From a virus, in the IMG/VR virus record IMGVR_UViG_3300046535_002148, positions 70,640 to 134,639 of that record: 64,000 nt of DNA, one strand, 5' to 3'. The notes below the pieces were generated by a model. That model made no database searches and was not told where the DNA came from. It saw nothing but the letters and a program-made list of their open reading frames with translations. Every line of letters starts with the position of its first letter. Positions within the stretch are counted from its first letter, which is position 1. Shown here one piece after another: positions 30,603-44,383 of the stretch. The position numbers and the translations under genes are program-made.

Positions 30603-32138
30603 TCAAGTCCACCGCTCGACCCACGCCAGACCACCGACGTCCAGCAGGCGCTGGGCGCGGGTGACCGCGACGTAGGCGAGCATCAGCTCATCGGGATCGA
30701 GCTCGGGGAGGTACCCGTTCTCGTCCTCCTCCGGCTCCCGGTCGGCGAAGTCCATGCTGATCCGCACCGAGTCCCACTGCCGGCCCTTGGCCCGGTGGGC
30801 GGTGGAGACCACGACGTCGGCTGCCATCTCCGCAGCGAGCGCGCCGTCGCCACGCAGACCGTGGTTGGCGGTCTTGCTCATCGCCTCGATGACGCCTTCG
30901 GGCCGGTAGTCGTCGATGAGTCGGACCCAGGTCTTGAGGTCCCCGCCGTCATGACTTTCTTCGACATATTCCTGGACCTCCGCCCAGGTCTTGAAGACGA
31001 ACAGGTCGCGGTGCGTGGTGGTGCCGGTCTTCATCAGTTCCTCCGCGGCCCGAGCGAACGCGACGACCTCGTCGGTTCCGCCCACCACGGCGACGCTGCG
31101 CCCGTCCTGGTGACAGCGCAGGACCTCCTTGACCACCGCGGCGTTGGTCCGGCACAGCACGGCCTTGGCCGCGGTGCCGAGCGGGCGGATCTCCCCGGGC
31201 TTGTCGGGATCGCCGGGCAGGACGCGCAGGTCGGCCCTGAGCAGCTCGAGCCACTTGTTGGCCTCGTCGGCGATCGCCTGGCCGAACCGCCAGGACTTGG
31301 TCAGGGTGCGGTCGTGCCGGGAGTCGAAGCTGTTCATCGCGTCGATCGCGCCGCGCCATCGGTAGATCGCCTGGTTCGCGTCCCCGACGACGACGACCTG
31401 GCAGCCCTGGCGCTGGAGCAGGTCCACGATCACGCCGTTCGCGTCCTGCCCTTCATCGAGCAGCACGTAGTCGTAGGGCAGTCGGGGCCGGGTCAGACAG
31501 AAGGCCTTGAGGTAGTGGTCGTGGGAGAAACGAAGTTTCCCGTCCGGACTGGACAGGTCCTCCCATGCCTGTTCTGCCCGCGGCACGATGTAGCGGGCCA
31601 GTTCGCGGCGCGCTTCGACGGTGTCGATGCGGGTCACGCCGGGGACGTGCCACTGGTCGATCTGCTCGTCGCCGGTGTAACAGAACCGCTGGACGGTTTC
31701 CATCGCGATGCGACCCAATTGTGGTGCGGGCATGACGATCCCGGCGAACTCCTGGAACTTCTTGATCCCGAGGATCTCGGCGGTGACCTGCGGTCGCACC
31801 CGGCTGCCGTTGAGCCGGTTGCGCAGGGCGTTGCCGCCCCAGGCGCGCGCTGCCCATCCGTAGGCCAACGAGTGGGCGGTCTTGCACTTCACGTACTCGG
31901 GGAAATCGAGCTGGGCCTCGTCAGCGATCGCCCGGTTGTAGGCAAGGTAGAGCCCGTTGCGGCCGGGGTGGACCCTGCTCATCATCTTCAGCGTCGACGT
32001 CTTCCCCGAGCCGGCCAAGGCGCTGATGGTCATGTTCTGCCGAGTGGCGAATGCCTGGATGCAGGCGTCCTGCTCGGAAGTGGGGCGCGGGCCGTGGACG
32101 GCGGGCGCGGTGGGGTCACTCTCGGCCTGGATCTTCAC
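30603..32138 (-). CDS. UvrD-like SF1 helicase
   Basis: ALAGSGKT, LAYN, TAHS, LLDEGQD, VGDANQAIYRWRGA, LTKSWRF, STAHRAKG, YVAVTRA. Confidence 0.9.
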   Translation of the reverse strand: MKIQAESDPTAPAVHGPRPTSEQDACIQAFATRQNMTISALAGSGKTSTLKMMSRVHPGRNGLYLAYNRAIADEAQLDFPEYVKCKTAHSLAYGWAARAWGGNALRNRLNGSRVRPQVTAEILGIKKFQEFAGIVMPAPQLGRIAMETVQRFCYTGDEQIDQWHVPGVTRIDTVEARRELARYIVPRAEQAWEDLSSPDGKLRFSHDHYLKAFCLTRPRLPYDYVLLDEGQDANGVIVDLLQRQGCQVVVVGDANQAIYRWRGAIDAMNSFDSRHDRTLTKSWRFGQAIADEANKWLELLRADLRVLPGDPDKPGEIRPLGTAAKAVLCRTNAAVVKEVLRCHQDGRSVAVVGGTDEVVAFARAAEELMKTGTTTHRDLFVFKTWAEVQEYVEESHDGGDLKTWVRLIDDYRPEGVIEAMSKTANHGLRGDGALAAEMAADVVVSTAHRAKGRQWDSVRISMDFADREPEEDENGYLPELDPDELMLAYVAVTRAQRLLDVGGLAWVERWT

Positions 32139-32668
32139 GTGGCGCTGTGCTCCTGAAGGAATGCCTCGACGTCGTCGAGGTGATGGGGCTGGAGGCCTCG
32201 GCGTGGGTCGGGCTCGATGAACAGGTGCGGCGGCAGTCGGCCTTCGTTGGATTCGAAGAAGCCCTTGAACTCCGTGATCGCCTCGTCGTCGGTCCAAATG
32301 ACGGGGTGGCCGGCCTGCATCACCTCGACCGCTGTCAGGCCCTTGGCGTAGTGACGCGTCCTGACGGTGACGTCGCGCAGGTGTTCCGAACCGATCGGCA
32401 GCCGCGGGAACCCCATGAGCTGTTCGACCTGGTGGGTGTCGAGGAGTTCGGGGTGTGTGGTGCTCATGCACCAGGTGCTCGACCAGCGCAGGTCGACGTC
32501 GAAGGTCTCGCGCAAGTGCAGGATCCGGGCGACCAGTCGCGGCGCCCAACGCATGCGGAAGCCGTTGCCCTGGGAATAGGCGATGCCCTGACGTGGAGCC
32601 TCACCCCAGCCCGGCTTCTGGCTGGTGTTGATCACTCCGTCGATGTCGAGCAGCCAGACGGCTCGCAA
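32135..32668 (-). CDS. HAD-superfamily protein (RNA-repair-associated HAD type)
   Basis: LLDIDGVIN, WSSTW, IWTDD motifs. Confidence 0.75.
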   Translation of the reverse strand: MRAVWLLDIDGVINTSQKPGWGEAPRQGIAYSQGNGFRMRWAPRLVARILHLRETFDVDLRWSSTWCMSTTHPELLDTHQVEQLMGFPRLPIGSEHLRDVTVRTRHYAKGLTAVEVMQAGHPVIWTDDEAITEFKGFFESNEGRLPPHLFIEPDPRRGLQPHHLDDVEAFLQEHSAT

Positions 32669-32739: not shown

Positions 32740-33114
32740 TCAGGTGCACTCGCAGTAACGCCAGGTCCAGCAGCCGTCCTTCCAGATCAAGTCGATGCGA
32801 CCGTCGTGGAGAGGGAAGGTGGGTCCGTCGTAGGCGTCCTGGATGGCGGTGTGCGCCAGACTCATTGCCTCGAGCGCCACGCAGTAGTCGACGTCTGTGA
32901 CCTGGTGGTGGAGAGGCAGCTGCCCGCCGTCCCAGTCGGAGTGGGCGAGCGCGAACCCTTCGCCGCAGCTGTTGGCCTGGACCTCGCAACCTGCAGAACA
33001 GACCATCCGACAGCCCTTGGGTCCGGGCCCGAGGCATTCCAGGTGGGCCGCGATCGCTCCGTGCTCGGTGATGGTCCAACTGATCTCGTGCACGGCGACC
33101 TCTTCTCGGCCCAA
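32740..33114 (-). CDS. Hypothetical protein
   Basis: Cys-rich 124-aa ORF. Confidence 0.45.
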   Translation of the reverse strand: MGREEVAVHEISWTITEHGAIAAHLECLGPGPKGCRMVCSAGCEVQANSCGEGFALAHSDWDGGQLPLHHQVTDVDYCVALEAMSLAHTAIQDAYDGPTFPLHDGRIDLIWKDGCWTWRYCECT

Positions 33115-33228
33115 GCTCCCGAGCTGGCTTCGGAGGGAGCGGGGTCATCCTGTCACCGGCAGAAATTTCCGGCCAGGTGGGGCCGGGCAATTGTTCTACC
33201 GTCGGGAGCGACCCGAAGGAGGAATCCC

Positions 33229-33879
33229 TTGACCGACCCGGATTACACCGCCATCGCCCTGGTGGTCGACCGCTCCGGCTCGATGGCGTCGATCGCCACC
33301 GACGCCTCCGGTGCCATCTCGCACTTCATCAAGGACCAGCGCGAGCAGCCCGGTCGCACCACCGTGAAGCTCGTCCAGTTCGACGACCAGTACGACGTGG
33401 TCTACCCCTCGACCGACATCCACCAGGTGCCGGAATACCAGCTGGTACCGCGCGGCAACACCGCCCTGCTCGACGCGATCGGGCGGACCGTCACCGACTT
33501 CGGCCACGAGCTGGCCGCGCTGCCCGAGGCCAACCGGCCCAGCACGGTCATCGTGGTCGTGCAGACCGACGGGCTGGAGAACGCCTCCCGGAACTACGGC
33601 CGGGAACAGATCGCCGGGATGATCCAGAACCAGGAGGCGAACTACGGCTGGAAGTTCGTGTACCTCGGCGCCAACCAGGACGCGATCGCCGTCGGCCAGG
33701 CCATGGGCTTCCATGGCCACTCGACCATGGACTACATGGCCTCCGGCGCCGGCGTCCGCGGCATGTCTGCCGGGCTGAGCAACTACGTCAACAACACCCG
33801 CACGTCAGGGACCTACGCCTTCACCGATGCCGACCGTCTCGCGGCGGTGGCGCCGGAGGACGAAGGGAAGCCGGCCTGA
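33229..33879 (+). CDS. vWA-domain protein
   Basis: TTG start after AGGAGG. VVDRSGSM, PRGNTALLDAIG, QTDGLENAS, YLGANQDA. Confidence 0.85.
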   Translation: MTDPDYTAIALVVDRSGSMASIATDASGAISHFIKDQREQPGRTTVKLVQFDDQYDVVYPSTDIHQVPEYQLVPRGNTALLDAIGRTVTDFGHELAALPEANRPSTVIVVVQTDGLENASRNYGREQIAGMIQNQEANYGWKFVYLGANQDAIAVGQAMGFHGHSTMDYMASGAGVRGMSAGLSNYVNNTRTSGTYAFTDADRLAAVAPEDEGKPA

Positions 33880-34414: not shown

Positions 34415-34788
34415 GCCCTGGTTATCGGCCCCTACTGGCCACGTGCCGAGCTGGTGCCGCCCACGATCGAGGAGTACCTGATGGAGCCCTGGCGAGACCC
34501 CGACGCCCCGCAGTGCAAGAACACTGCAGCGCGCTGCAACCACGTCCTGAGCGCACACGACCCCGCCAGCGGCGAGTGTCTGGTCCAGATCTGCGAATGC
34601 CGTTCCTGGCAGCCCTGAGACCGCTCCCGCCCGCAGCCCCTTCCGTTCCCCGGAGGGGGCTTTCGTGGTCTCCGGGGTCCGTCAACCCGTGACCGCGAGC
34701 CTCCGAAGCTGGCTCGGGAGTTTTTCGCTACCACGGACAGGCCGCGCGAGCGTGACGACGACGCCGACGGGGCCCTCCGGCCGCGGCG

Positions 34789-34794
34789 TAGGTT
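34789..34794 (+). promoter_or_regulatory. Candidate -10 (TAGGTT) for the Y RNA-AAA-rsr transcript
   Basis: TANNNT ~50 nt upstream of unit 1 and ~70 nt downstream of a palindrome copy. Confidence 0.4.
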
Positions 34795-34842
34795 CTAACC
34801 AGTCGCAGACGCCGAAGACCTCGGCTAGCGTCAAGCAACGAC

Positions 34843-34974
34843 GCCGTGGTCGGTGCGAACGGTCGGGATACTTCTGTTACTGGTTCGAGTCCGGTCTCGG
34901 GAGCCACTCCCGAGAAGCTCAATTGGCTGAGCAAGGTTCACGCCTGACCGGATCTGATGGTTCTCGACCACGGC
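34843..34974 (+). ncRNA. Y RNA-like (YrlA-type) unit 1
   Basis: Outer stem GCCGTGGTCG/CGACCACGGC, CGGTGCG, TACTTC. Permuted tRNA core: T arm ACTGG-TTCGAGT-CCGGT, acceptor hairpin CTCGGGA-GCCAC-TCCCGAG, D arm GCTC/GAGC. No anticodon loop. Confidence 0.85.
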
Positions 34975-34980
34975 TGCACG

Positions 34981-35137
34981 ACCGCACAGGTGACTGATCG
35001 GTGCGTAGGACACGGGATACTTCTTTCGGAAAAAAAGGCGATTCCAGTTCGACTCTGGGCCGCTCCACTCGTGGGGCGGGGTGTGGACCTAGTAATTTCC
35101 CGAGTTCGCCTGGATCTCGATCGGTCTCCTGTGCGGT
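34981..35137 (+). ncRNA. Y RNA-like unit 2 (degenerate permuted tRNA cargo)
   Basis: Long outer stem ACCGCACAGG..GATCG / CGATC..CCTGTGCGGT, CGGTGCG, TACTTC. T loop TTCGACT, acceptor hairpin CCGCTCCAC/GTGGGGCGG. D arm replaced by a short loop. Confidence 0.8.
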
Positions 35138-35160
35138 TGGGCCTTCGACCGCACAGTCAA

Positions 35161-35303
35161 CCGCTACCGGTGCGCAGGAACTGGTTACTTCCCTTGCATG
35201 GAGGGAACGCGGGTTCGAATCCCGCCTGGAGTCCTCGTGGCTCCTGTCGACCAGCGGCCTAGGTCACCTACGTTCCCAGCTCCGACCTTGTCCTCGGTGG
35301 CGG
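35161..35303 (+). ncRNA. Y RNA-like unit 3 (complete permuted tRNA cargo, UGC anticodon)
   Basis: Outer stem CCGCTACCG/CGGTGGCGG, CGGTGCG, TACTTC. Anticodon loop CTTGCAT, T arm GCGGG-TTCGAAT-CCCGC, D arm GACC/GGTC. Confidence 0.85.
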
Positions 35304-35320
35304 CTGCCCTATTCCCCTAA

Positions 35321-36838
35321 TTGACGGAGCATCAGATGGAACCGATCGAGGCCGACGGCCAGATCATCGTGAAGCCCAAGACCGCGGCCCAAGAGGCCGG
35401 CAGTGCAGTGCTCAAGGAACTTGCGCGACTCGGCGGCAACCTCACCACCGAGGACGCCCTGGAGTTCCGTGGCAAGAAGATCGTCCTGCCGGAGTCGATG
35501 AGCGGCGACGTCAGCGCCGCCATCAAGTGGCTCAAGGAGCACCAGGAACAGCAGGAGCAGAAGCACATCTTCCGCCGCGTCTTCAAGTACCGACCGCTGG
35601 ACGGCGCCCACGCCTTCCACCAGGTACTGAAGAAGGTCTGGGGCAACACGGGCCTCGGCAAGCCGATCAACACCATGTTCGGTCCGATCCCGCCGGCGTT
35701 CATCACCATCGACGTCGGCGTCAACGAGACCGCCCAGGTGCCGCAGAACCGCATCGACTTCCCGCCGCTGCAGGCCGAGATCTACTGCGAGGACGCGGTC
35801 GACCCCGAACTGGGTCCGCTGTTCGAGCTGATCATCGAGGCGCCGCGCAAGTTCCGCGGCCACATCGAAGGTCTGTTCATCGCGATCGAGCAGGAGCTGC
35901 AGCACCACTCGATCTACAAGGGCAAGGCCATCACCGGCGCCACGGTCCCGGCCTTCATCGACACCTCCAAGGTCGACCCGGACAAGGTCGTCTACTCCCA
36001 GGAGACGCTGACCCAGCTCGGCGCCAACGTGTGGTCGGTCCTGCGCCACGGCGAGGAGATGAAGAAGCTCGGCATCTCCCTCAAGCGCGCCGTCCTCCTC
36101 GAGGGTCCGTTCGGGACCGGCAAGACCCTGGCGGCGTTCCTCACCGCGCAGGAAGCGGTCAAGGCCGGCTGGACCTTCGTGTTCTGCCGCCCCGGCGTCG
36201 ACGACCTCGACCGCACGATGAAGACCGCCCTGCTCTACGCACCGTCGGTCGTCTTCTTCGAGGACATCGACGTCCTGGCCGAGCGCGGTGACCCCGAGGC
36301 CGTACAGAAGCTGCTCGACACCTTCGACGGCATCGGCGCGAAGAACCAGGACTGCATCGCGGTCCTGACGACCAACCACGTCGACAAGATCCACCGCGGG
36401 ATGCTGCGCCCGGGCCGTCTGGACGCGGTCATCCACATCGGCGAACTGGACGCCAGCGGCATCGAGCGGCTGATCCGCGTCAAGGTCCCCGAGGACCGTC
36501 TCGGTGAGCTGAAGATGGACGAGGTCTGGGACGCCATGAAGGGCTTCCTGCCGGCCTTCGCCGCCGAGGCCATCGACCGGGCCATGCGCTACCAGATCCA
36601 CCGCACCGGTGCCCTGGGCAAGCTCGAGACCACGGACTTCGTGGCCGCGGCCCTCGGTCTGCGCCCGCAGCTGGACCTCATGGAGGGCGCCGGCGAGGGA
36701 CAGCGCACGCCGACACTGGACGCGGTGATCCACAAGGCCGTCCGCGGCGCCGTGCACGAGATGGTGCTCGTCGACCGCTCCGGCGGACGCAGCCACCAGC
36801 TCGACGGCCAGGGCGACCCGGTCTACGCCGCCAAATAA
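35321..36838 (+). CDS. Classical AAA ATPase with long N-terminal domain
   Basis: Walker A GPFGTGKT, Walker B VVFFEDID, SRH TTNHVDKIHRGMLRPGRLD. Confidence 0.9.
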   Translation: MTEHQMEPIEADGQIIVKPKTAAQEAGSAVLKELARLGGNLTTEDALEFRGKKIVLPESMSGDVSAAIKWLKEHQEQQEQKHIFRRVFKYRPLDGAHAFHQVLKKVWGNTGLGKPINTMFGPIPPAFITIDVGVNETAQVPQNRIDFPPLQAEIYCEDAVDPELGPLFELIIEAPRKFRGHIEGLFIAIEQELQHHSIYKGKAITGATVPAFIDTSKVDPDKVVYSQETLTQLGANVWSVLRHGEEMKKLGISLKRAVLLEGPFGTGKTLAAFLTAQEAVKAGWTFVFCRPGVDDLDRTMKTALLYAPSVVFFEDIDVLAERGDPEAVQKLLDTFDGIGAKNQDCIAVLTTNHVDKIHRGMLRPGRLDAVIHIGELDASGIERLIRVKVPEDRLGELKMDEVWDAMKGFLPAFAAEAIDRAMRYQIHRTGALGKLETTDFVAAALGLRPQLDLMEGAGEGQRTPTLDAVIHKAVRGAVHEMVLVDRSGGRSHQLDGQGDPVYAAK

Positions 36839-36881
36839 TCCAGTGGCCGTCGCCGGGTAACCAGGGGAAGCTCGGCGACAT

Positions 36882-36995
36882 GAGTCCGGTGCGAGACCAG
36901 GAGATACTTCTGTCGCCAGCTGGGCCTTCAACAAGCCTGGCACCCAAGGGGAAACCTGACAGGTCCCCGACTCCAGGTCGCCTGATCTCGGGCTC
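36882..36995 (+). ncRNA. Y RNA-like unit 4 (non-tRNA cargo)
   Basis: Outer stem GAGTCCG/CGGGCTC, CGGTGCG, inner stem GACCAGGAG/CTCCAGGTC, GATACTTC, CCTGATCTCG. Confidence 0.75.
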
Positions 36996-37014
36996 CTAGT
37001 ACTTCAGCAACACC

Positions 37015-37137
37015 GCACCTCCCGGTGCGAAGACCCACGGCTACTTCGGAAAACAACCTGCCTCCGGGCTCGGTTCAGGTGGTTCAAATCCACCAAAGGC
37101 AACACCAGCCGTGAGTTGACCTGTTCTCGGGAGGCGC
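37015..37137 (+). ncRNA. Y RNA-like unit 5 (T-arm-containing cargo)
   Basis: Outer stem GCACCTCCCG/CGGGAGGCGC, CGGTGCG, CTACTTC, T arm GGTGG-TTCAAAT-CCACC, CCTGTTCTCG. Confidence 0.75.
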
Positions 37138-37301
37138 AGCCCCAAGGTGGGCCGGTGCGCAGACATCGGTTACTTCGCCTGTGGAGCCGTGGGTCGCAGG
37201 TTCGAGTCCTGCCGCGCCGACCTGGTCTCGGCGTGTAGCTCAGTCGGTAGAGCAACGTCAGTTCCGACGTCGACCTGGTTCTCGGCCCACCCTGAGGCTG
37301 C
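37136..37301 (+). ncRNA. Y RNA-like unit 6 (complete permuted tRNA cargo, GUG anticodon)
   Basis: Outer stem ...GGTGGGCCG/CGGCCCACC..., CGGTGCG, TACTTC. Anticodon loop CTGTGGA, T arm GCAGG-TTCGAGT-CCTGC, acceptor CGCGCCG/CGGCGTG, D arm GCTC-AGTCGGTA-GAGC. Confidence 0.88.
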
Positions 37302-37328
37302 GCCTCCCTTCATGGAAGGCGATCGAAG

Positions 37329-38921
37329 ATGGCAAAGTTCAACAGCGCCACCGCCACGAAGACCCGCGCCCGCGGCCCGATCAAGGCCAGCGCCACCAAG
37401 ACCACCGTCACCCACGAGGGTGCGCCGGCCTACTCCCGGGACGCCAAGAGCGACCTGTTCCTCCTCGCCGTCTCCAACATGGTCGGAGAGGCGACGTTCT
37501 ACGAGTCGGCCAGCGACCGGGACAACCGCTTCGGCGCCCTGGTCCGCCAGGTCGCCGTCGAGGACTTCGACTGGTTCTCGGTGTTCCTGCCCTGGCTGCG
37601 CGCTGAGGGGAACATGCGTTCCGCGCCGCTGGTCGCCGCGTGCGAGGCGGTCAAGGCCCGCCTGGACGCCGGCCTGCACGGCGGCAACCGCCAGCTGGTC
37701 GACACCGTCTGCCAGCGCGCCGACGAACCGGGTGAACTGCTGTCCTACTGGATGAACACGCACGGCCGGGCGGTCCCGAAGCCGGTCAAGCGTGGTGTCT
37801 CCGACGCCGCGGCGCGGCTCTACAACGAGCGCTCCGCGCTGAAGTACGACACCGACGGCAAGCCCATGCGCTTCGGCGACGTGCTGGAGATCGCGCACTG
37901 CTCCCCCGCGGCCGACAAGCCGTGGCAGGGCACGCTCTACAAGCACCTGATCGACCGGCGCCACAAGCGCGGGGAGGAGATCCCCGACAGCCTGCAGACG
38001 CTGCGGACCCGGGCCTCCTTGATGGCACTGCCGGTCGAGCAGCGTCGCCAGTGGGTGGACGGCACCGAGACCTCCCGGGCTGCGCTCAACGGCGCCGCCA
38101 TGACGTGGGAGGCGCTCGCCGGTTGGCTGCAGGGCCCGATGGACAAGGCCGCCTGGGAGACGGTGATCCCGAACATGGGAATCATGGCGCTGATCCGGAA
38201 CCTGCGGAACTTCGACGAGGCCGGCGTCAGCGACAAGGTCGCCAACGAGGTCATCGCGAAGATCTCCGACCCGGAGGTCGTCGCGAAGTCCCGCCAGTTC
38301 CCGTTCCGCTGGTACTCCGCCTACAGGAACGCACCGAGCCTGCGGTGGGGTCACGCGCTGGACCAGGCGCTCACGCAGTCGACCAAGAACATCCCCGAGC
38401 TCAAGGGCCGCACCCTGGTCCTGGTCGACACCTCCGCATCCATGAACGGCATGGGCTACTCCCGTCGTTCGGAGGTCACTCCGGCCGTGGCCGCGGCCCT
38501 GTTCGGGGTGGCGGTCTCGGCGCGCTGCAAGGACGTCGACCTGCACGGCTTCGCGACCGGGGAGTTCCGGCACGAGACCAAGAAGGGCGCCTCGGTGATC
38601 AAGGAGGTCGACCGGTTCGTCAACCGCATCGGTGAGGTCGGGCACGGCACCGACATCGCCGGCGCGGTCCGTCGGACCTACAACGGCCAGGACCGGGTCA
38701 TCATCATCACCGACATGCAGACGATGACCGGCGGCATCGACCAGCTGGTGCCGCAGCACGTCCCGATGTACGGCTTCAACCTTGGCGGGTACGCCCCGAC
38801 GATGCTGCCGTCGACGTCGACGCGGGTGGAGATGGGGTCGCTGACCGACGCAGCCTTCCGGATCATCCCGATGATCGAGGCCGGTAGGGATGGCACCTGG
38901 CCGTGGGACGATCAGGACTGA
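37329..38921 (+). CDS. rsr: Ro60/TROVE-domain RNA-binding protein (Rsr ortholog) with C-terminal vWA
   Basis: THEGAPAY, LFLLAV..TFYE, GNMRSAP, QRADEPGE, MALIRNLRNF, SRQFPFR. vWA LVDTSASM, GTD, IITD. Confidence 0.92.
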   Translation: MAKFNSATATKTRARGPIKASATKTTVTHEGAPAYSRDAKSDLFLLAVSNMVGEATFYESASDRDNRFGALVRQVAVEDFDWFSVFLPWLRAEGNMRSAPLVAACEAVKARLDAGLHGGNRQLVDTVCQRADEPGELLSYWMNTHGRAVPKPVKRGVSDAAARLYNERSALKYDTDGKPMRFGDVLEIAHCSPAADKPWQGTLYKHLIDRRHKRGEEIPDSLQTLRTRASLMALPVEQRRQWVDGTETSRAALNGAAMTWEALAGWLQGPMDKAAWETVIPNMGIMALIRNLRNFDEAGVSDKVANEVIAKISDPEVVAKSRQFPFRWYSAYRNAPSLRWGHALDQALTQSTKNIPELKGRTLVLVDTSASMNGMGYSRRSEVTPAVAAALFGVAVSARCKDVDLHGFATGEFRHETKKGASVIKEVDRFVNRIGEVGHGTDIAGAVRRTYNGQDRVIIITDMQTMTGGIDQLVPQHVPMYGFNLGGYAPTMLPSTSTRVEMGSLTDAAFRIIPMIEAGRDGTWPWDDQD

Positions 38922-38936
38922 CAGCCTCCGCAGCGA

Positions 38937-38970
38937 GAAGCCCCCGCACCGAGTTTGGTGCGGGGGCTTC
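38937..38970. terminator. Bidirectional hairpin terminator after rsr
   Basis: 14-bp inverted repeat GAAGCCCCCGCACC/GGTGCGGGGGCTTC between convergent genes. Confidence 0.75.
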
Positions 38971-38971
38971 T

Positions 38972-39190
38972 TCAGCTCTCCTCGTCACCGTGGCCGAGCA
39001 GGATGGCGACCACGGACTCGGCCCATTCGTTCTCCCCGCCCCGTGACCGCAGCCAGACGTCCAGGGACGGCCGGTCCAGTTCGGCGATGTCGAAGGAGCC
39101 CCACCGGCCGTCGGGGTCCTTGGCGCGGACATAGATGCCGGTGATCCCGTGCAGTGCATCGTGCCGTGCGGGGTCGATCAGTAGCTCCAT
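38972..39190 (-). CDS. Hypothetical protein
   Basis: 72 aa, TGIYVRA...WGSFDIAELD. Confidence 0.5.
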   Translation of the reverse strand: MELLIDPARHDALHGITGIYVRAKDPDGRWGSFDIAELDRPSLDVWLRSRGGENEWAESVVAILLGHGDEES

Positions 39191-40144
39191 CAGGCTTCCT
39201 CGGATGGTGGAGTGGCGTACGCCGGGTCATGGCCGGGACACTGCTGCGACCAGTGGCCGTTGCTGCCGCAACGCAGACACGTGGAAGTCGCGGGCGTAGT
39301 CGGCGCGGCGGTGGGAGCCAGGTAGTGCGCGACGGCGTCCGCGAGACAGGCTCGGTCGAGACTTGCGGACCTCTCTGCGAGCGTCAGGCCGTTGAACCAC
39401 TCGACGGCAGCGTCGATGACGGCCCGCATCGCGGCGACCTGTTCCTCGGCCTTCATCGCTCGCTGCCGTTCCCGGAGCACACCTCTCTGAGTGGTCGTCA
39501 CCTCGGCGGACGTCTCGGCCAGCTCCGCAGTCAGGTCCTCGACGACGTCGGCCAGGCGGAGGGCGGCATCCCGGAAGGGCTTCGGAGCGCGCCAGCGCGG
39601 CCAGCGCACGGTCGCGATGTCGGCGGCGACCCCGTCCTCGCTCATGCCTCCCACCCGCAGGTCTGGCAGACGCGGACGACTCCTCGGCCGCGGGAGGGCA
39701 GCTCGAGGTAGAGCCATTTGCGGCTGCCGCAGCGCAGTCGGTGCATCAAGGAACGGATCATGCTGACGCCCCGTCAGTTACGCGCCTGGACTCGAACTTG
39801 CCCCACGCGCCGATCAGTACTCCCCATTCGACACCGACCGCGGCCACCCGCTCGTTGATGAACTTCTGCGGCTTGCGTTCCCGGCGGAGCGAGGTCGCGA
39901 GCTGGGAGACGACCAGCTGGTACTCCAGTTCGACGTCGCGCCGGTTCGGGAAACGGGCGCTGAGCACGACACCTTGATCGGTGATGACGTACCAGCCCGG
40001 GACCGTGCTGGCCTCGAGGTAGCGAGAGGGGTCGGCGTCGTGGCTCACCAGCGGATCGTCACACACGGATACGACATTGTGTTCGATCCGATCCTGGGGC
40101 AGACTGCCCTCATGCGTCGATGGTGACTCCCCCGCCCCGTTCAT

Positions 40145-43215: not shown

Positions 43216-43953
43216 ATGACGAAGCTGAATCAGTTGGTGGCTGTTGAGAAGGGCCTCAAGAGCACGGTGAACCGTCGTTGGACGGACTGCTACCACCAGG
43301 TAGGGAAGTCGGCGCTGCTCGCCGGCCTGCAGCGCACCTACACGCCCAAGGAGGAGGACGGCGACCAGCTTCCCCCGGAGTCGGTGCGGGTACAGATCGA
43401 CGTCGAGGACGTCCTGGTGACGCTGGGCAAGGATCTCGGGCGGCTGTTCGACGTGGTCTCCACGAAGGACAACGCGAACTGCGAGGCCAAGGCCGACGTC
43501 AAGCTGTCCGACGGCTCGGTGCTGCTGCACGACGTGCCGGTCTCCACGCTGCTGTACCTCGAGAAGCAGCTGACCGACCTGCACACCTTCTGCGCCAAGC
43601 TGCCGGTGCTCGACCCGGCCGAGAACTGGACGCGCGACGAGAACGCCAACGTCTACAAGACCGACGCGGTGCAGACCACCCGGACCAAGAAGGTCCCGAA
43701 GGCGTTCGTGAAGGCGCCGGCCACGGACAAGCACCCGGCCCAGGTGGAGATGTTCCACGAGGACGTGATCGCGGGCACCTGGACGCTGGTCAAGCACTCC
43801 GGGGCCATCCCGGCGACCCGCCGCGTCCAGCTCGTCGATCGTGTGGAGGAGCTGCAACGCGCGGTGAAGTTCGCCCGTGAGGCCGCGAACACCATGGAGA
43901 TCACCGACAAGCTCATGGGCAAGGCGGTGTTCGACTACCTCTTCGCGAGGTAG
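43216..43953 (+). CDS. Conserved hypothetical helical/coiled-coil protein (candidate partner of the downstream RNA)
   Basis: 245 aa MTKLNQLVAVEKG...RTYTPK...RTKKVP...HPAQV. Leaderless TAGCGT -10. Resembles an uncharacterised family I recall from actinobacteria and phages (not verified). Confidence 0.8.
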   Translation: MTKLNQLVAVEKGLKSTVNRRWTDCYHQVGKSALLAGLQRTYTPKEEDGDQLPPESVRVQIDVEDVLVTLGKDLGRLFDVVSTKDNANCEAKADVKLSDGSVLLHDVPVSTLLYLEKQLTDLHTFCAKLPVLDPAENWTRDENANVYKTDAVQTTRTKKVPKAFVKAPATDKHPAQVEMFHEDVIAGTWTLVKHSGAIPATRRVQLVDRVEELQRAVKFAREAANTMEITDKLMGKAVFDYLFAR

Positions 43954-43964
43954 TCCCACAGATC

Positions 43965-44383
43965 CCCACCGGCGCCCCCTTGCTGGACGGTCCGGTGGGT
44001 AGCACGGAGCACAAGCTGAAGATGAAGCTCACGACAGGAGGCCCTCAGGCTGAACGTCAACTGAATCTGATGCCACATCAGCGGCAAAGTGGAGTGTTCG
44101 AATCCTCCCCGGGGCCCCAACTCATGCCCCGGTAGCCCAATCGGTAGAGGCACCGCCGGCCCTCAGACTCTTGCTCCAACTTCAGACCCCCCACGCCCAT
44201 CGGATCAACCTGGTCGGGGCAACCCCACGAAGCGATGCCGGTTCGAATCCGGCCCGAGGCTCCACGTGCCTCGGTGGTCTAACGGCAAGACAACTTCGAG
44301 TTTCTGAAGCTGATCCCGATCATTCAAACGTCGCCGGTGGGACGACAACGTGGACAGTCACGTCTTGAAAACGTGAATACACA
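43965..44383 (+). ncRNA. Structured RNA with two circularly permuted tRNA-like domains
   Basis: Domain A (44081-44156) and domain B (44228-44298) each read T arm, 7-bp acceptor hairpin, D arm, closed by a short stem. Boundaries approximate. Confidence 0.75.

What the first reader, a model, noticed from the sequence alone, without database searches (positions are those of the whole stretch)
35161..37301. Complete circularly permuted tRNAs with anticodon loops, all opened at position 29/30
Seen: rejoining unit 6 gives a canonical 73-nt cloverleaf, CGGCGTG TA GCTC AGTCGGTA GAGC A ACG|GC CTGTGGA GCCGT GGGTC GCAGG TTCGAGT CCTGC CGCGCCG A (anticodon GUG). Unit 3 gives GCTCCTG TC GACC AGCGGCCTA GGTC A CCT|CC CTTGCAT GGAGG GAAC GCGGG TTCGAAT CCCGC CTGGAGT C (anticodon UGC). 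Unit 2 gives CCT|TT TCGGAAAA AAAGG with an 8-nt loop and no D arm. In all three the 5-bp anticodon stem is completed only across the break (3 nt + 2 nt), and the break abuts the conserved TACTT(C). Known: described YrlA RNAs replace the anticodon arm with the Ro stem rather than keep it. Discriminator bases do not match the anticodons (A73 with GUG, C73 with UGC). Inference: these are anticodon-displaying decoys for anticodon nucleases or modification enzymes, or precursors ligated into tRNA-like products.
Basis: partly seen in the sequence, partly recalled or inferred. Interest (0 to 1): 0.9.

Follow-up and report, generated by a model that had tools for sequence, protein, structure and literature searches.

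The report
Phage Y RNAs keeping an anticodon arm
Small RNAs encoded beside a phage's Ro60 gene are back-to-front tRNA look-alikes that, unlike the textbook bacterial Y RNA, also carry a realistic anticodon stem-loop, so they imitate a whole tRNA while tied to the Ro60 protein.

Summary
The window (a 134.6-kb soil phage) carries six YrlA-type Y RNA units around an AAA ATPase gene and just upstream of a Ro60/TROVE gene. Units 6, 3 and 2 carry a short hairpin between the conserved TACTT(C) and the T arm. Its two base pairs stack on the three pairs formed with the nucleotides after the D arm, giving a 5-bp stem with a 7-nt loop (8 nt in unit 2).

In 66 homologous units from 39 sources, both helices covary (0 of 500 shuffles reach the observed score). 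A set of 26 units from bacterial genomes behaves the same way. The loops look like real anticodon loops: U33 in 31 of 34, purine 37 in 30 of 34, G36 with G37, and 26 different triplets.

The break position is not fixed. It varies from 28/29 to 30/31 across the family.

The hairpin is not wholly new. Chen et al. 2014 drew a stem-loop there and called it a variable arm, and a primer printed there for M. smegmatis YrlA shows the same hairpin layout. Reading it as an anticodon arm appears to be new.

A decoy or tether function is plausible but untested. Ligation into tRNAs is unsupported. Earlier scan notes describe related Ro60 partner RNAs with the inverse topology on other DNA.

The parts
34844..34977 (+). 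Y RNA unit 1: canonical YrlA layout with no hairpin insertion. The CTT of TACTTC pairs directly with the AGG after the D arm. The acceptor loop holds G-CCA.
   Evidence: Rfam YrlA 42.3 bits, below the gathering score of 69. R1 model 77.2 bits. Coordinates.
34992..35130 (+). Y RNA unit 2: T arm and acceptor stem, no D arm. Hairpin TT/AA with an 8-nt loop (35024-35035), AGG 35036-35038 pairing with CCT 35088-35090.
   Evidence: R1 63.9 bits. Coordinates. ARAGORN did not call the re-permuted form.
35161..35307 (+). Y RNA unit 3: complete permuted tRNA mimic. Anticodon-like loop CTTGCAT at 35193-35199, stem CC/GG (35191-35192, 35200-35201) plus AGG/CCT (35202-35204, 35267-35269).
   Evidence: R1 102.8 bits. 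Coordinates. ARAGORN calls the unpermuted DNA tRNA-Ala(tgc) at 35163-35234 and the re-permuted form tRNA-Ala(tgc).
35321..36838 (+). AAA ATPase gene (505 aa) inside the array.
   Evidence: Pfam AAA PF00004, E 6.1e-14. phrog_10440, unknown function. Not found by tblastn in the 150 viral and phage loci held.
36880..37001 (+). Y RNA unit 4: Ro60-binding scaffold with GGTGCG...TACTTC, without a full tRNA-like domain.
   Evidence: Motif match. R1 30.2 bits.
37016..37140 (+). Y RNA unit 5: the same scaffold with an isolated T arm.
   Evidence: Motif match. R1 33.5 bits.
37146..37295 (+). Y RNA unit 6: complete permuted tRNA mimic. Closing stem 37146-37154/37283-37291, GGTGCGCAG motif, second stem 37164-37169/37264-37269, TACTTC 37171-37176.
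   Evidence: R1 145.4 bits (it is one of the model's 10 seeds). Rfam YrlA 43.2 bits. Coordinates.
37177..37190 (+). Unit 6 anticodon-arm look-alike, 3' part: GC, loop CTGTGGA, GC, then CGT, which pairs with ACG at 37255-37257.
   Evidence: Covariation of the homologous columns. A homologue in Enterococcus phage vB_OCPT_Ben keeps GC CTATGGA GC CGT ... ACG.
37255..37257 (+). Unit 6 nucleotides 27-29 (ACG) after the D arm. They form the 5' strand of the cross-break part of the stem.
37329..38921 (+). Ro60 (TROVE) gene, 530 aa, directly downstream of the array.
   Evidence: Pfam TROVE PF05731, E 9.7e-14. phrog_850 RNA-binding protein. 25 related viral loci at 41-57% identity.

Best explanation
These are YrlA-class Y RNAs, the non-coding partners of the phage's Ro60 protein.

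Architecture. Each RNA has a closing stem with a GGUGCG(N)AG motif that resembles the Ro60 site of Y RNAs. It also has a circularly permuted tRNA-like domain, in the order T arm, loop-closed acceptor stem, D arm. In units 6 and 3 (and, in degenerate form, unit 2) the mimic is complete:
- The 2-4 nucleotides after the D arm pair with the strand just upstream of the variable loop.
- A 1-3-bp hairpin with a 7-nt loop stacks on them.
- Together they make a 5-bp stem with an anticodon-type loop.
- The Ro60-binding stem leaves sideways through the gap in the 5' strand, making a three-way junction. The conserved UACUUC lies on one side of the gap and, commonly, ACGU on the other.

Inferred function. 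Ro60 carries a whole-tRNA look-alike whose anticodon arm is offered to proteins that read anticodon loops, such as anticodon nucleases, modification enzymes or synthetases. The RNA would act as bait, competitor or tether. A phage with several units shows several different triplets.

Shown here: the architecture, its conservation, the covariation, the tRNA-like loop signature and the adjacency to Ro60.

Inferred, not shown: expression, Ro60 binding, coaxial stacking and the partner proteins.
For: Context:
- The array lies next to a TROVE gene.
- Of the loci with a tRNA-domain unit listed, the tblastn run found a Ro60 relative in most. Its printed list stops at 40 of 42 loci.

Family resemblance: Rfam YrlA is the best family match to units 6 and 1, at 43.2 and 42.3 bits.

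Covariation of the whole model on 66 units from 39 sources:
- 93.6% of cells paired against 64.3% in shuffles.
- Local hairpin pairs: 89.0% against 40.4%, with 59 cells changed on both sides.
- Cross-break pairs: 89.9% against 53.7%, with 64 such cells.
- 0 of 500 shuffles reach the covariation score in any of these three counts.

Second set: 26 units from bacterial genomes. Local pairs 90.2% paired, cross pairs 93.7%.

Prevalence: 40 of the 66 units have two local pairs and a 7-nt loop as aligned. 13 of the 26 bacterial units do.

Loop signature:
- Over 34 distinct loops: U33 in 31, purine 37 in 30, and 26 different triplets.
- Among 23 viral loops: A38 in 21, G36 followed by G37 in 7 of 8, U36 by A37 in 9 of 9, C36 by A37 in 5 of 5.
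- 9 of the 23 viral loops are identical to loops of real tRNAs in the same loci.

Divergence among 26 pairs of units at least 80% identical elsewhere:
- Triplet 34-36: 25 of 78 sites differ (0.32).
- Positions 32, 33, 37, 38: 8 of 104 (0.08).
- Rest of the RNA: 452 of 3499 (0.13).

Compensation across the break: units that lack the third nucleotide after the D arm use the last C of TACTTC instead, which keeps 5 bp (7 of 32 units).

Literature:
- M. smegmatis YrlA is Rsr-bound, cut by RNase P and given a CCA end (Chen 2014, section 8 passages).
- Hughes et al. 2020 suggest YrlA may compete with an anticodon nuclease (passages).
- A preprint reports that a Ro60-like protein of phage Bas63 counters the Ppl defence (passage).
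Against: - Nearest-neighbour energies give the 2-bp hairpin only -0.5 (unit 6) and -0.9 kcal/mol (unit 3). The proposed folds (-43.0 and -42.2) lie far above the MFE folds (-68.1 and -60.2).
- In 77.3% of cells the 41-43 strand could instead pair with the UUC of TACTTC. That pairing cannot be excluded as an alternative conformer.
- For unit 6, folding with the other helices enforced pairs CUUC with GGAG.
- The alignments were fitted to the model's structure, and the sequences are related. The shuffle counts are therefore not probabilities.
- ARAGORN on re-permuted sequences is a weak test. It called 30 of 32 with the expected triplet, but it also called 877 of 1600 controls with a shuffled arm.
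- A32 occurs in 6 of 23 loops against 2 of 144 real tRNAs.
- 26 of the 66 units lack the hairpin as aligned.
- The rest of the mimic matches the displayed triplet poorly. The nearest real tRNA body has the same anticodon in 1 of 40 units.
- There is no expression, binding or probing datum for these phage RNAs.
Confidence: 0.6

Rival explanations
1. The hairpin is real but only architectural. It would be a junction-stabilising or Ro60-gating element left over from the tRNA ancestry of YrlA. The triplet it displays would mean nothing and would drift freely.
For: - The triplet diverges faster than the rest of the RNA (0.32 against 0.13). Neutral drift would also give this.
- 26 of 66 units do without the hairpin.
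- The linker between TACTTC and the stem varies from 3 to about 10 nt in units without it.
- The body of the mimic does not match the triplet (1 of 40).
Against: - The loop length of 7, U33, purine 37, A38 and the G36-G37 / U36-A37 coupling are kept across Streptomyces, Gordonia, Xanthomonas and Enterococcus phages and actinobacterial genomes.
- The loop flanks are more conserved than the rest of the RNA (0.08 against 0.13).
- A purely structural tetraloop-type cap would not need an anticodon-loop signature.
Confidence: 0.2
2. The strand 41-43 pairs locally with the invariant UUC of TACTTC. This would give an ordinary self-contained 5-bp hairpin, or a switch between that hairpin and the cross-break stem.
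For: - 77.3% of cells can form these pairs.
- Some units fit the local stem better than the cross stem. Examples are the CTTCA/TGAAG type in L108:9304 and Streptomyces phage BRock L153:3275.
- ARAGORN reads the unpermuted DNA that way in 22 units.
Against: - There is no covariation: 77.3% observed against 76.5% in shuffles, and 45 of 500 shuffles reach the score. UUC never varies, while 41-43 covary with the nucleotides after the D arm.
- Unit 6 and its Enterococcus homologue cannot form it in this register.
- Without the cross stem the D arm is left unattached to the junction.
Confidence: 0.1
3. These are true permuted or split tRNA genes. Their transcripts would be cut and ligated, or used as two pieces, to give decoding tRNAs.
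For: - The re-permuted units 6 and 3 give 73-nt cloverleaves that ARAGORN calls tRNA-His(gtg) and tRNA-Ala(tgc).
- The phage has no His or Ala tRNA of its own.
- M. smegmatis YrlA is cut by RNase P and gains CCA (Chen 2014).
Against: - No RtcB, RNA_ligase or PolyA_pol family match in the 92%-complete phage genome.
- The Ro60-binding stem and TACTTC sit at the junction exactly as in units without any anticodon loop.
- The break position varies.
- Triplets ACC, ATG and ATT occur.
- Unit 3 lacks G3.U70 and has C73. Unit 6 has A73 and no G-1. The bases are from the sequence; the identity rules are recalled.
- ARAGORN's false-call rate on shuffled arms is 877 of 1600.
Confidence: 0.04
4. The hairpin is a variable arm, as the stem-loop upstream of the T arm was labelled by Chen et al. 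2014.
For: Chen et al. [quoted passage not shown]
Against: - For a variable arm, the nucleotides after the D arm must pair 5' of the hairpin. That pairing, with the UUC of TACTTC, is formed in 26.6% of cells, the same as in shuffles (26.6%).
- Instead they pair with the strand 3' of the hairpin. This puts the hairpin at the anticodon end of the stem.
- I could not see Chen's figures or supplements, so their exact drawing is not known to me.
Confidence: 0.03

Closest known systems
YrlA (Y RNA-like A; Rfam RF02553; Chen et al. 2014, PMC4201824; Wang et al. 2018 preprint 10.1101/312249)
   Same: - Encoded next to a Ro60/Rsr gene.
- A 5'/3' closing stem with a Ro60-type motif.
- A permuted tRNA-like domain with T arm, loop-closed acceptor stem and D arm.
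- A short stem formed by the nucleotides after the D arm.
- A conserved YUAY (here UAC of TACTTC) before that stem.
- Found in phages as well as bacteria.
   Different: - The window units score below Rfam's gathering threshold (43 against 69 bits).
- The Rfam consensus and S. Typhimurium YrlA continue the anticodon stem into the Ro60 stem and have no anticodon loop. These units add a hairpin with a 7-nt anticodon-type loop and route the Ro60 stem out through a gap in the 5' strand.
- The invariant UUC after UAC is specific to this subfamily.
M. smegmatis YrlA (Chen et al. 2014)
   Same: - Actinobacterial.
- About 147 nt.
- Upstream of Rsr.
- 7-bp acceptor stem.
- The primer printed for its 5' half reads as CA, a 7-nt CTTCTAA loop, TG, 3 nt, a 5-nt variable stretch and the start of the T stem. 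This is the same layout as here.
   Different: - It was published with that stem-loop treated as a variable region, as far as the text shows.
- I could not fetch the full sequence. The primer was not found in 401 sampled genomes. Its cross-break pairs are therefore unchecked.
[quoted passage not shown] Nothing is shown for the phage units.
D. radiodurans Yrn1 (Chen et al. 2014)
   Same: A Ro60-bound Y RNA that can be drawn with a 5-bp 'anticodon arm'.
   Different: - 6-nt loop and no full D arm.
- Different orientation of the T and D arms relative to the ends.
- Judged an independent lineage by its authors.
Circularly permuted tRNA genes of the red alga Cyanidioschyzon and two-piece (permuted) tmRNA (recalled, not read here)
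   Same: The 3' half is encoded before the 5' half, and the acceptor ends are joined by a linker that processing enzymes can open.
   Different: Those give functional, chargeable products after processing. Here the free ends form a protein-binding stem, and the identity elements do not fit the displayed anticodons.
Earlier scan notes on Ro60 partner RNAs with the inverse topology (for example e1-5529253)
   Same: A whole tRNA shape joined to a Ro60-docking stem at the anticodon stem, beside phage Ro60 genes.
   Different: In those the ends are at the acceptor stem and the Y module is loop-closed. Here the ends are at the Y stem and the acceptor is loop-closed. These are AI notes that I did not test.

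Membership tests
YrlA-class Y RNA | Encoded adjacent to a Ro60/Rsr (TROVE) gene | tested here: met
   TROVE gene at 37329-38921, 34 nt after unit 6. Ro60 relatives lie next to units in the viral loci and in 11 of 21 bacterial loci.
YrlA-class Y RNA | Permuted tRNA-like domain: T arm, loop-closed acceptor-like stem, D arm, closed by a short stem | tested here: met
   Helices paired in 96.7-99.2% of cells, with two-sided changes. The Rfam alignment covers these elements.
YrlA-class Y RNA | Score at or above Rfam RF02553's gathering threshold (69 bits) | tested here: not met
   43.2, 42.3 and 18.7 bits for units 6, 1 and 3. 0 of 6 matches in the phage genome are over the cut-off.
YrlA-class Y RNA | 5' motif GNCGAAN0-1G proposed for Rsr recognition (Chen 2014) | tested here: inconclusive
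   The units have GGTGCG(A/C/T)A(G/C). This is close to, but not an exact instance of, the printed motif. It differs at one position from the vertebrate GGUCCGA quoted in the paper.
YrlA-class Y RNA | Bound by Ro60/Rsr in vivo | not testable with these tools
   No RNA or binding data.
Functional (decoding) tRNA, permuted gene | Acceptor-end identity elements that fit the anticodon, and a route to joined or chargeable products | tested here: not met
   Unit 6 (GTG) has A73 and no G-1. Unit 3 (TGC) has U3-A70 and C73 (identity rules recalled). No ligase or CCA-enzyme families in the phage.
Functional (decoding) tRNA, permuted gene | Cloverleaf recognised by a tRNA finder after re-permutation | tested here: inconclusive
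   30 of 32 were called with the expected triplet, but so were 877 of 1600 controls with a shuffled arm.
tRNA anticodon arm (as a structural mimic) | 5-bp stem, 7-nt loop, U33, purine 37 | tested here: met
   32 of 42 parsed units allow 5 bp plus a 7-nt loop. U33 in 31 of 34 and R37 in 30 of 34 distinct loops. Covariation.

The most novel reading that the evidence does not exclude
Ro60 particles of actinophages, other phages and actinobacteria carry a fast-changing panel of authentic anticodon arms on whole-tRNA mimics, which RNase P may open and the CCA enzyme may finish. The panel would act as anticodon-specific bait. It would soak up or sense tRNA-cutting defence nucleases, or hand anticodon-reading enzymes, or tRNAs damaged by them, to Ro60 and its nuclease partners. 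Each unit would cover one tRNA species, and the triplet would evolve in an arms race.
Probability: 0.2. Interest if true: 0.85.

Novelty: new variant of a known kind. Interest (0 to 1): 0.62.

Why it matters
The tRNA-like domain of bacterial Y RNAs has no known partner. The solved example lacks an anticodon loop, which has steered thinking toward proteins that bind the elbow or acceptor.

If a large subfamily presents a complete anticodon arm with real-looking, quickly changing triplets, the likely partners narrow to proteins that read anticodon loops. That subfamily includes cultured Gordonia, Streptomyces, Xanthomonas and Enterococcus phages, and probably the well-studied M. smegmatis RNA. 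The question then becomes directly testable by modification mapping, nuclease competition and charging assays. It also ties phage Ro60 to the current work on tRNA-targeting defences.

There is a practical consequence too. These units are being annotated as tRNA genes. GenBank lists tRNA-Arg(tct) in Gordonia phage VanLee and tRNA-Arg(cct) in Streptomyces phage GiJojo. ARAGORN made 22 such calls in the loci examined.

Tried and rejected
- ARAGORN on re-permuted sequences. One search failed on a parsing error and fixed it. The test proved weak because 877 of 1600 controls with a shuffled arm were also called.
- Nearest real tRNA by D, variable and T regions. Only 1 of 40 units has a nearest real tRNA with the same anticodon, so there is no general whole-tRNA mimicry of one isoacceptor.
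- Stem identity to real tRNAs with the same anticodon. The mean best identity is 5.5 of 10, no better than with other anticodons, so there is no sign of recent copying of anticodon arms from real tRNAs.
- Variable-arm pairing model: rejected.
- UUC local pairing: no covariation, but not excluded.
- Minimum-free-energy folding does not recover the proposed fold.
- Promoter and terminator scan of 34500-39300. It found 0 promoter-like sites and 2 terminator-like sites, against 2.0 expected. This is uninformative.
- Neighbour genes. The AAA ATPase, VWA, HAD_SAK_2, redoxin and UvrD-like proteins of the window were not found beside Ro60 in the other viral or phage loci (0 loci each). They are not part of a conserved module.
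- Public sequencing runs: no RNA holder listed.
- Fetching M. smegmatis YrlA by its printed primer: not found in the 401 sampled genomes of the order of G001.
- Literature. Searches 'YrlA' plus 'tRNA-like', 'Y RNA' + 'Ro60' + 'bacteriophage' + 'anticodon' from 2015, 'permuted tRNA' + 'phage' and 'YrlA' alone (listing only) returned no paper describing a YrlA with an anticodon stem-loop.
  - The figures and supplements of Chen et al. 2014 (Supplemental Fig. S1, Table S2: phage YrlA structures) could not be seen and may show these hairpins.
  - The Annual Review by Sim et al. 2020 is not held.


Full report
**What is there.** The window is the right-hand 64 kb of a 134.6-kb IMG/VR virus record with 67% G+C.
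- Between 34.8 and 37.3 kb lie six units that share GGTGCG, a spacer of 6-20 nt and ACTTC. There are 8 matches in the window against 0.81 expected, and six of them are in this region.
- The units flank an AAA ATPase gene (35321-36838) and end 34 nt before a TROVE/Ro60 gene (37329-38921).
- Rfam's YrlA model is the best family match to units 6 and 1 (43.2 and 42.3 bits), but it stays below its gathering score of 69.
- The Rfam consensus structure has the T arm, a loop-closed acceptor stem and the D arm enclosed by a 4-bp stem. That stem runs on into the Ro60-binding stem, and there is no anticodon loop.

**The observation.**
- In unit 6, TACTTC is followed by GC, CTGTGGA, GC, CGT, a 5-nt variable stretch and the T arm. 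After the D arm come A and ACG.
- In unit 3 the same layout uses the last C of TACTTC as the first stem base: CC, CTTGCAT, GG, AGG, with CCT after the D arm.
- Unit 2 has TT, an 8-nt loop, AA, AGG and CCT, and no D arm.
- Unit 1 has no insertion. There the CTT of TACTTC itself pairs with the AGG after the D arm, which is the canonical YrlA arrangement.

**Homologues.**
- A protein-guided scan with the Ro60 protein gave 25 viral loci. Most have a unit just upstream of Ro60 with an insertion of the same kind.
- A DNA pattern scan gave 118 more viral stretches.
- Named phages also carry such units: Enterococcus phage vB_OCPT_Ben, Xanthomonas phage 10KY502B, Streptomyces phages GiJojo, BRock and Quantum, and Gordonia phages VanLee and Rabbitrun.
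- I built a covariance model from ten hairpin-bearing units with the proposed structure. Searching the window and 150 loci found 88 + 35 matches.
- The 66 matches with E at most 1e-12 from 39 sources form alignment A5.

**Covariation on A5.**
- Whole structure: 93.6% of cells paired against 64.3% in shuffles.
- The two local pairs alone: 89.0% against 40.4%. Pair types include GC, CG, UA and AU. The covariation score is 0.714 against 0.142.
- The three cross-break pairs: 89.9% against 53.7%. The score is 0.866 against 0.214.
- In each of these three counts, 0 of 500 shuffles reach the observed score.
- Sliding the partner strand by 1-3 columns lowers pairing to 25-50% for the local pairs and 32-60% for the cross-break pairs.
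- Two rival pairings were counted on the same alignment.
  - The invariant UUC of TACTTC with strand 41-43 is formable in 77.3% of cells. That equals the shuffles (76.5%), so it has no covariation support but cannot be excluded as an alternative conformer.
  - The pairing needed for a variable-arm reading joins the nucleotides after the D arm with UUC. It is formed in 26.6% of cells, the same as in shuffles, and is rejected.
- A second set came from bacterial genomes: a genome-contig scan, plus a model search of 151 genomes of one actinobacterial family, 12 of which had a match. Its 26 units gave 90.2% pairing for the local helix and 93.7% for the cross helix.
- Caveats: both alignments were fitted to the model, the rows are related, and cells count sequences rather than events.

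**Break position.** In my own parse of 42 units, 32 allow a 5-bp composite stem with a 7-nt loop.
- The split between pairs made with the strand after the D arm and local pairs is 3+2 in 13 units, 2+3 in 7, 4+1 in 8, 1+4 in 2 and 5+0 in 2.
- Five of the 4+1 cases belong to one family that the model aligns as 3+2.
- In the 2+3 cases the nucleotide after the D arm is missing before the common ACGT, and the last C of TACTTC takes its place.
- So the total of five pairs is kept while the exit point of the Ro60 stem moves. 'All opened at 29/30' describes this window only.

**The loop.**
- 40 of 66 viral units and 13 of 26 bacterial units have two local pairs and a 7-nt loop as aligned.
- Over 34 distinct loops, U33 occurs in 31 and a purine at 37 in 30. 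There are 26 different triplets.
- Among 23 viral loops, A38 occurs in 21. G36 goes with G37 in 7 of 8, U36 with A37 in 9 of 9 and C36 with A37 in 5 of 5. Real tRNAs from the same loci show the same coupling.
- 9 of the 23 viral loops are identical to a real tRNA loop in those loci.
- A32 is over-represented: 6 of 23 loops against 2 of 144 real tRNAs.
- Among 26 pairs of units at least 80% identical elsewhere, the triplet differs at 0.32 of sites, the loop flanks at 0.08 and the rest of the RNA at 0.13.
- The body of the mimic does not generally match the triplet (1 of 40).
- The stems are no closer to real tRNAs with the same anticodon than to others.
- The phage itself has seven real tRNAs (Trp, Met, Gln, two Ser, Leu, Tyr) and none for His or Ala.

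**What it is not.**
- The phage genome, which CheckV estimates at 92% complete, gave no match to the RtcB, PolyA_pol (CCA enzyme) or RNA_ligase families.
- Unit 6 has A73 and no G-1. Unit 3 has U3-A70 and C73. By recalled identity rules, neither should be charged with His or Ala.
- Triplets such as ACC, ATG and ATT occur.
- These points argue against decoding tRNAs made by ligation.
- Nearest-neighbour thermodynamics do not favour the proposed fold. The hairpin adds only -0.5 to -0.9 kcal/mol, and the MFE folds are 18-25 kcal/mol lower. Support therefore rests on comparative evidence and on assumed coaxial stacking.

**What was known.**
- The Wang et al. 2018 preprint states that S. Typhimurium YrlA lacks the anticodon loop (passages).
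- Chen et al. 2014 found YrlA near Ro60 in more than 250 bacterial and phage species. [quoted passage not shown]
- They show that M. smegmatis YrlA is Rsr-bound, cut by RNase P and extended with CCA. A primer they print for its 5' half has the same hairpin layout, with a CTTCTAA loop (passages).
- So the hairpin has been seen before. What I could not find in the searchable literature is its reading as the anticodon arm, its loop signature or its diversity. Figures and supplements were not visible to me.
- Hughes et al. 2020 propose that YrlA might competitively inhibit an anticodon nuclease.
- A 2024 preprint reports that a Ro60-like protein of phage Bas63 counters the Ppl defence and suggests that some neighbouring 'tRNA genes' are Y RNAs.
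- Earlier notes of this scan describe related Ro60 partner RNAs with the inverse topology on other DNA. I did not test them.

**Verdict.**
- The structural observation is confirmed and extends well beyond this phage.
- The units are best filed as a variant of YrlA-class Y RNAs that keeps an anticodon-arm mimic.
- Function as bait, competitor or tether for anticodon-reading proteins is the most likely reading, but it is inferred.
- A purely architectural role, and a switch involving UUC, remain open.

Noticed in passing
L155:3204-3275 (Gordonia phage VanLee) and L152:3269-3343 (Streptomyces phage GiJojo): GenBank annotates tRNA-Arg(tct) and tRNA-Arg(cct) directly upstream of the Ro-like gene. 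Both overlap Y RNA units found by the model, so they look like misannotated Y RNAs. ARAGORN made 22 such calls over units in the loci examined.
   Followed up: partly
window 44080-44320: Two more permuted tRNA-like domains lie after a DUF7873 gene (43216-43953). They lack the GGTGCG...TACTTC scaffold. An earlier follow-up of this scan has already treated them.
   Followed up: no
window 35321-36838: The AAA ATPase (phrog_10440, unknown function) sits in the middle of the Y RNA array. It was not found beside Ro60 in any of the other 150 viral or phage loci held.
   Followed up: partly
L007:1481-1605 and L007:1848-3077 (Enterococcus phage vB_OCPT_Ben): A close homologue of unit 6, including GC CTATGGA GC CGT, lacks TACTTC. 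It is followed by a DUF2828 + DUF7788 protein, not by a gene recognised as TROVE. The blastn search listed 29 Enterococcus phage records matching this stretch.
   Followed up: partly
window 37164-37169 with 37264-37269, and the homologous stem in other units: The second stem of the scaffold often carries one unpaired position. Column pair 24/250 of A5 is unpaired in 30 of 65 cells. It is an A.C mismatch in units 6 and 3.
   Followed up: no
window 37158-37162 with 37179-37183: The MFE fold of unit 6 pairs the loop bases CUGUG with CGCAG of the Ro60 motif. 9 of 23 distinct viral loops contain CUG. This may be chance, or it may hint at self-masking.
   Followed up: no
window 34903-34906: With a 7-bp acceptor stem, the acceptor loop of unit 1 reads G then CCA. 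The loop of unit 6 starts with A-CC. This fits RNase P/CCA-type processing of the kind shown for M. smegmatis YrlA.
   Followed up: no
A5 and A7 loops: Five distinct loops carry U33-G34-U35 (triplets GTG, GTT, GTC, GTA). From recall, this is the element read by tRNA-guanine transglycosylase and by some anticodon nucleases.
   Followed up: no
window 32135-32668 (-): A small protein matches the HAD domain of 'Swiss Army Knife' RNA repair proteins (E 2.6e-06). It lies 2 kb upstream of the array, and a VWA-domain protein lies at 32806-33879.
   Followed up: no
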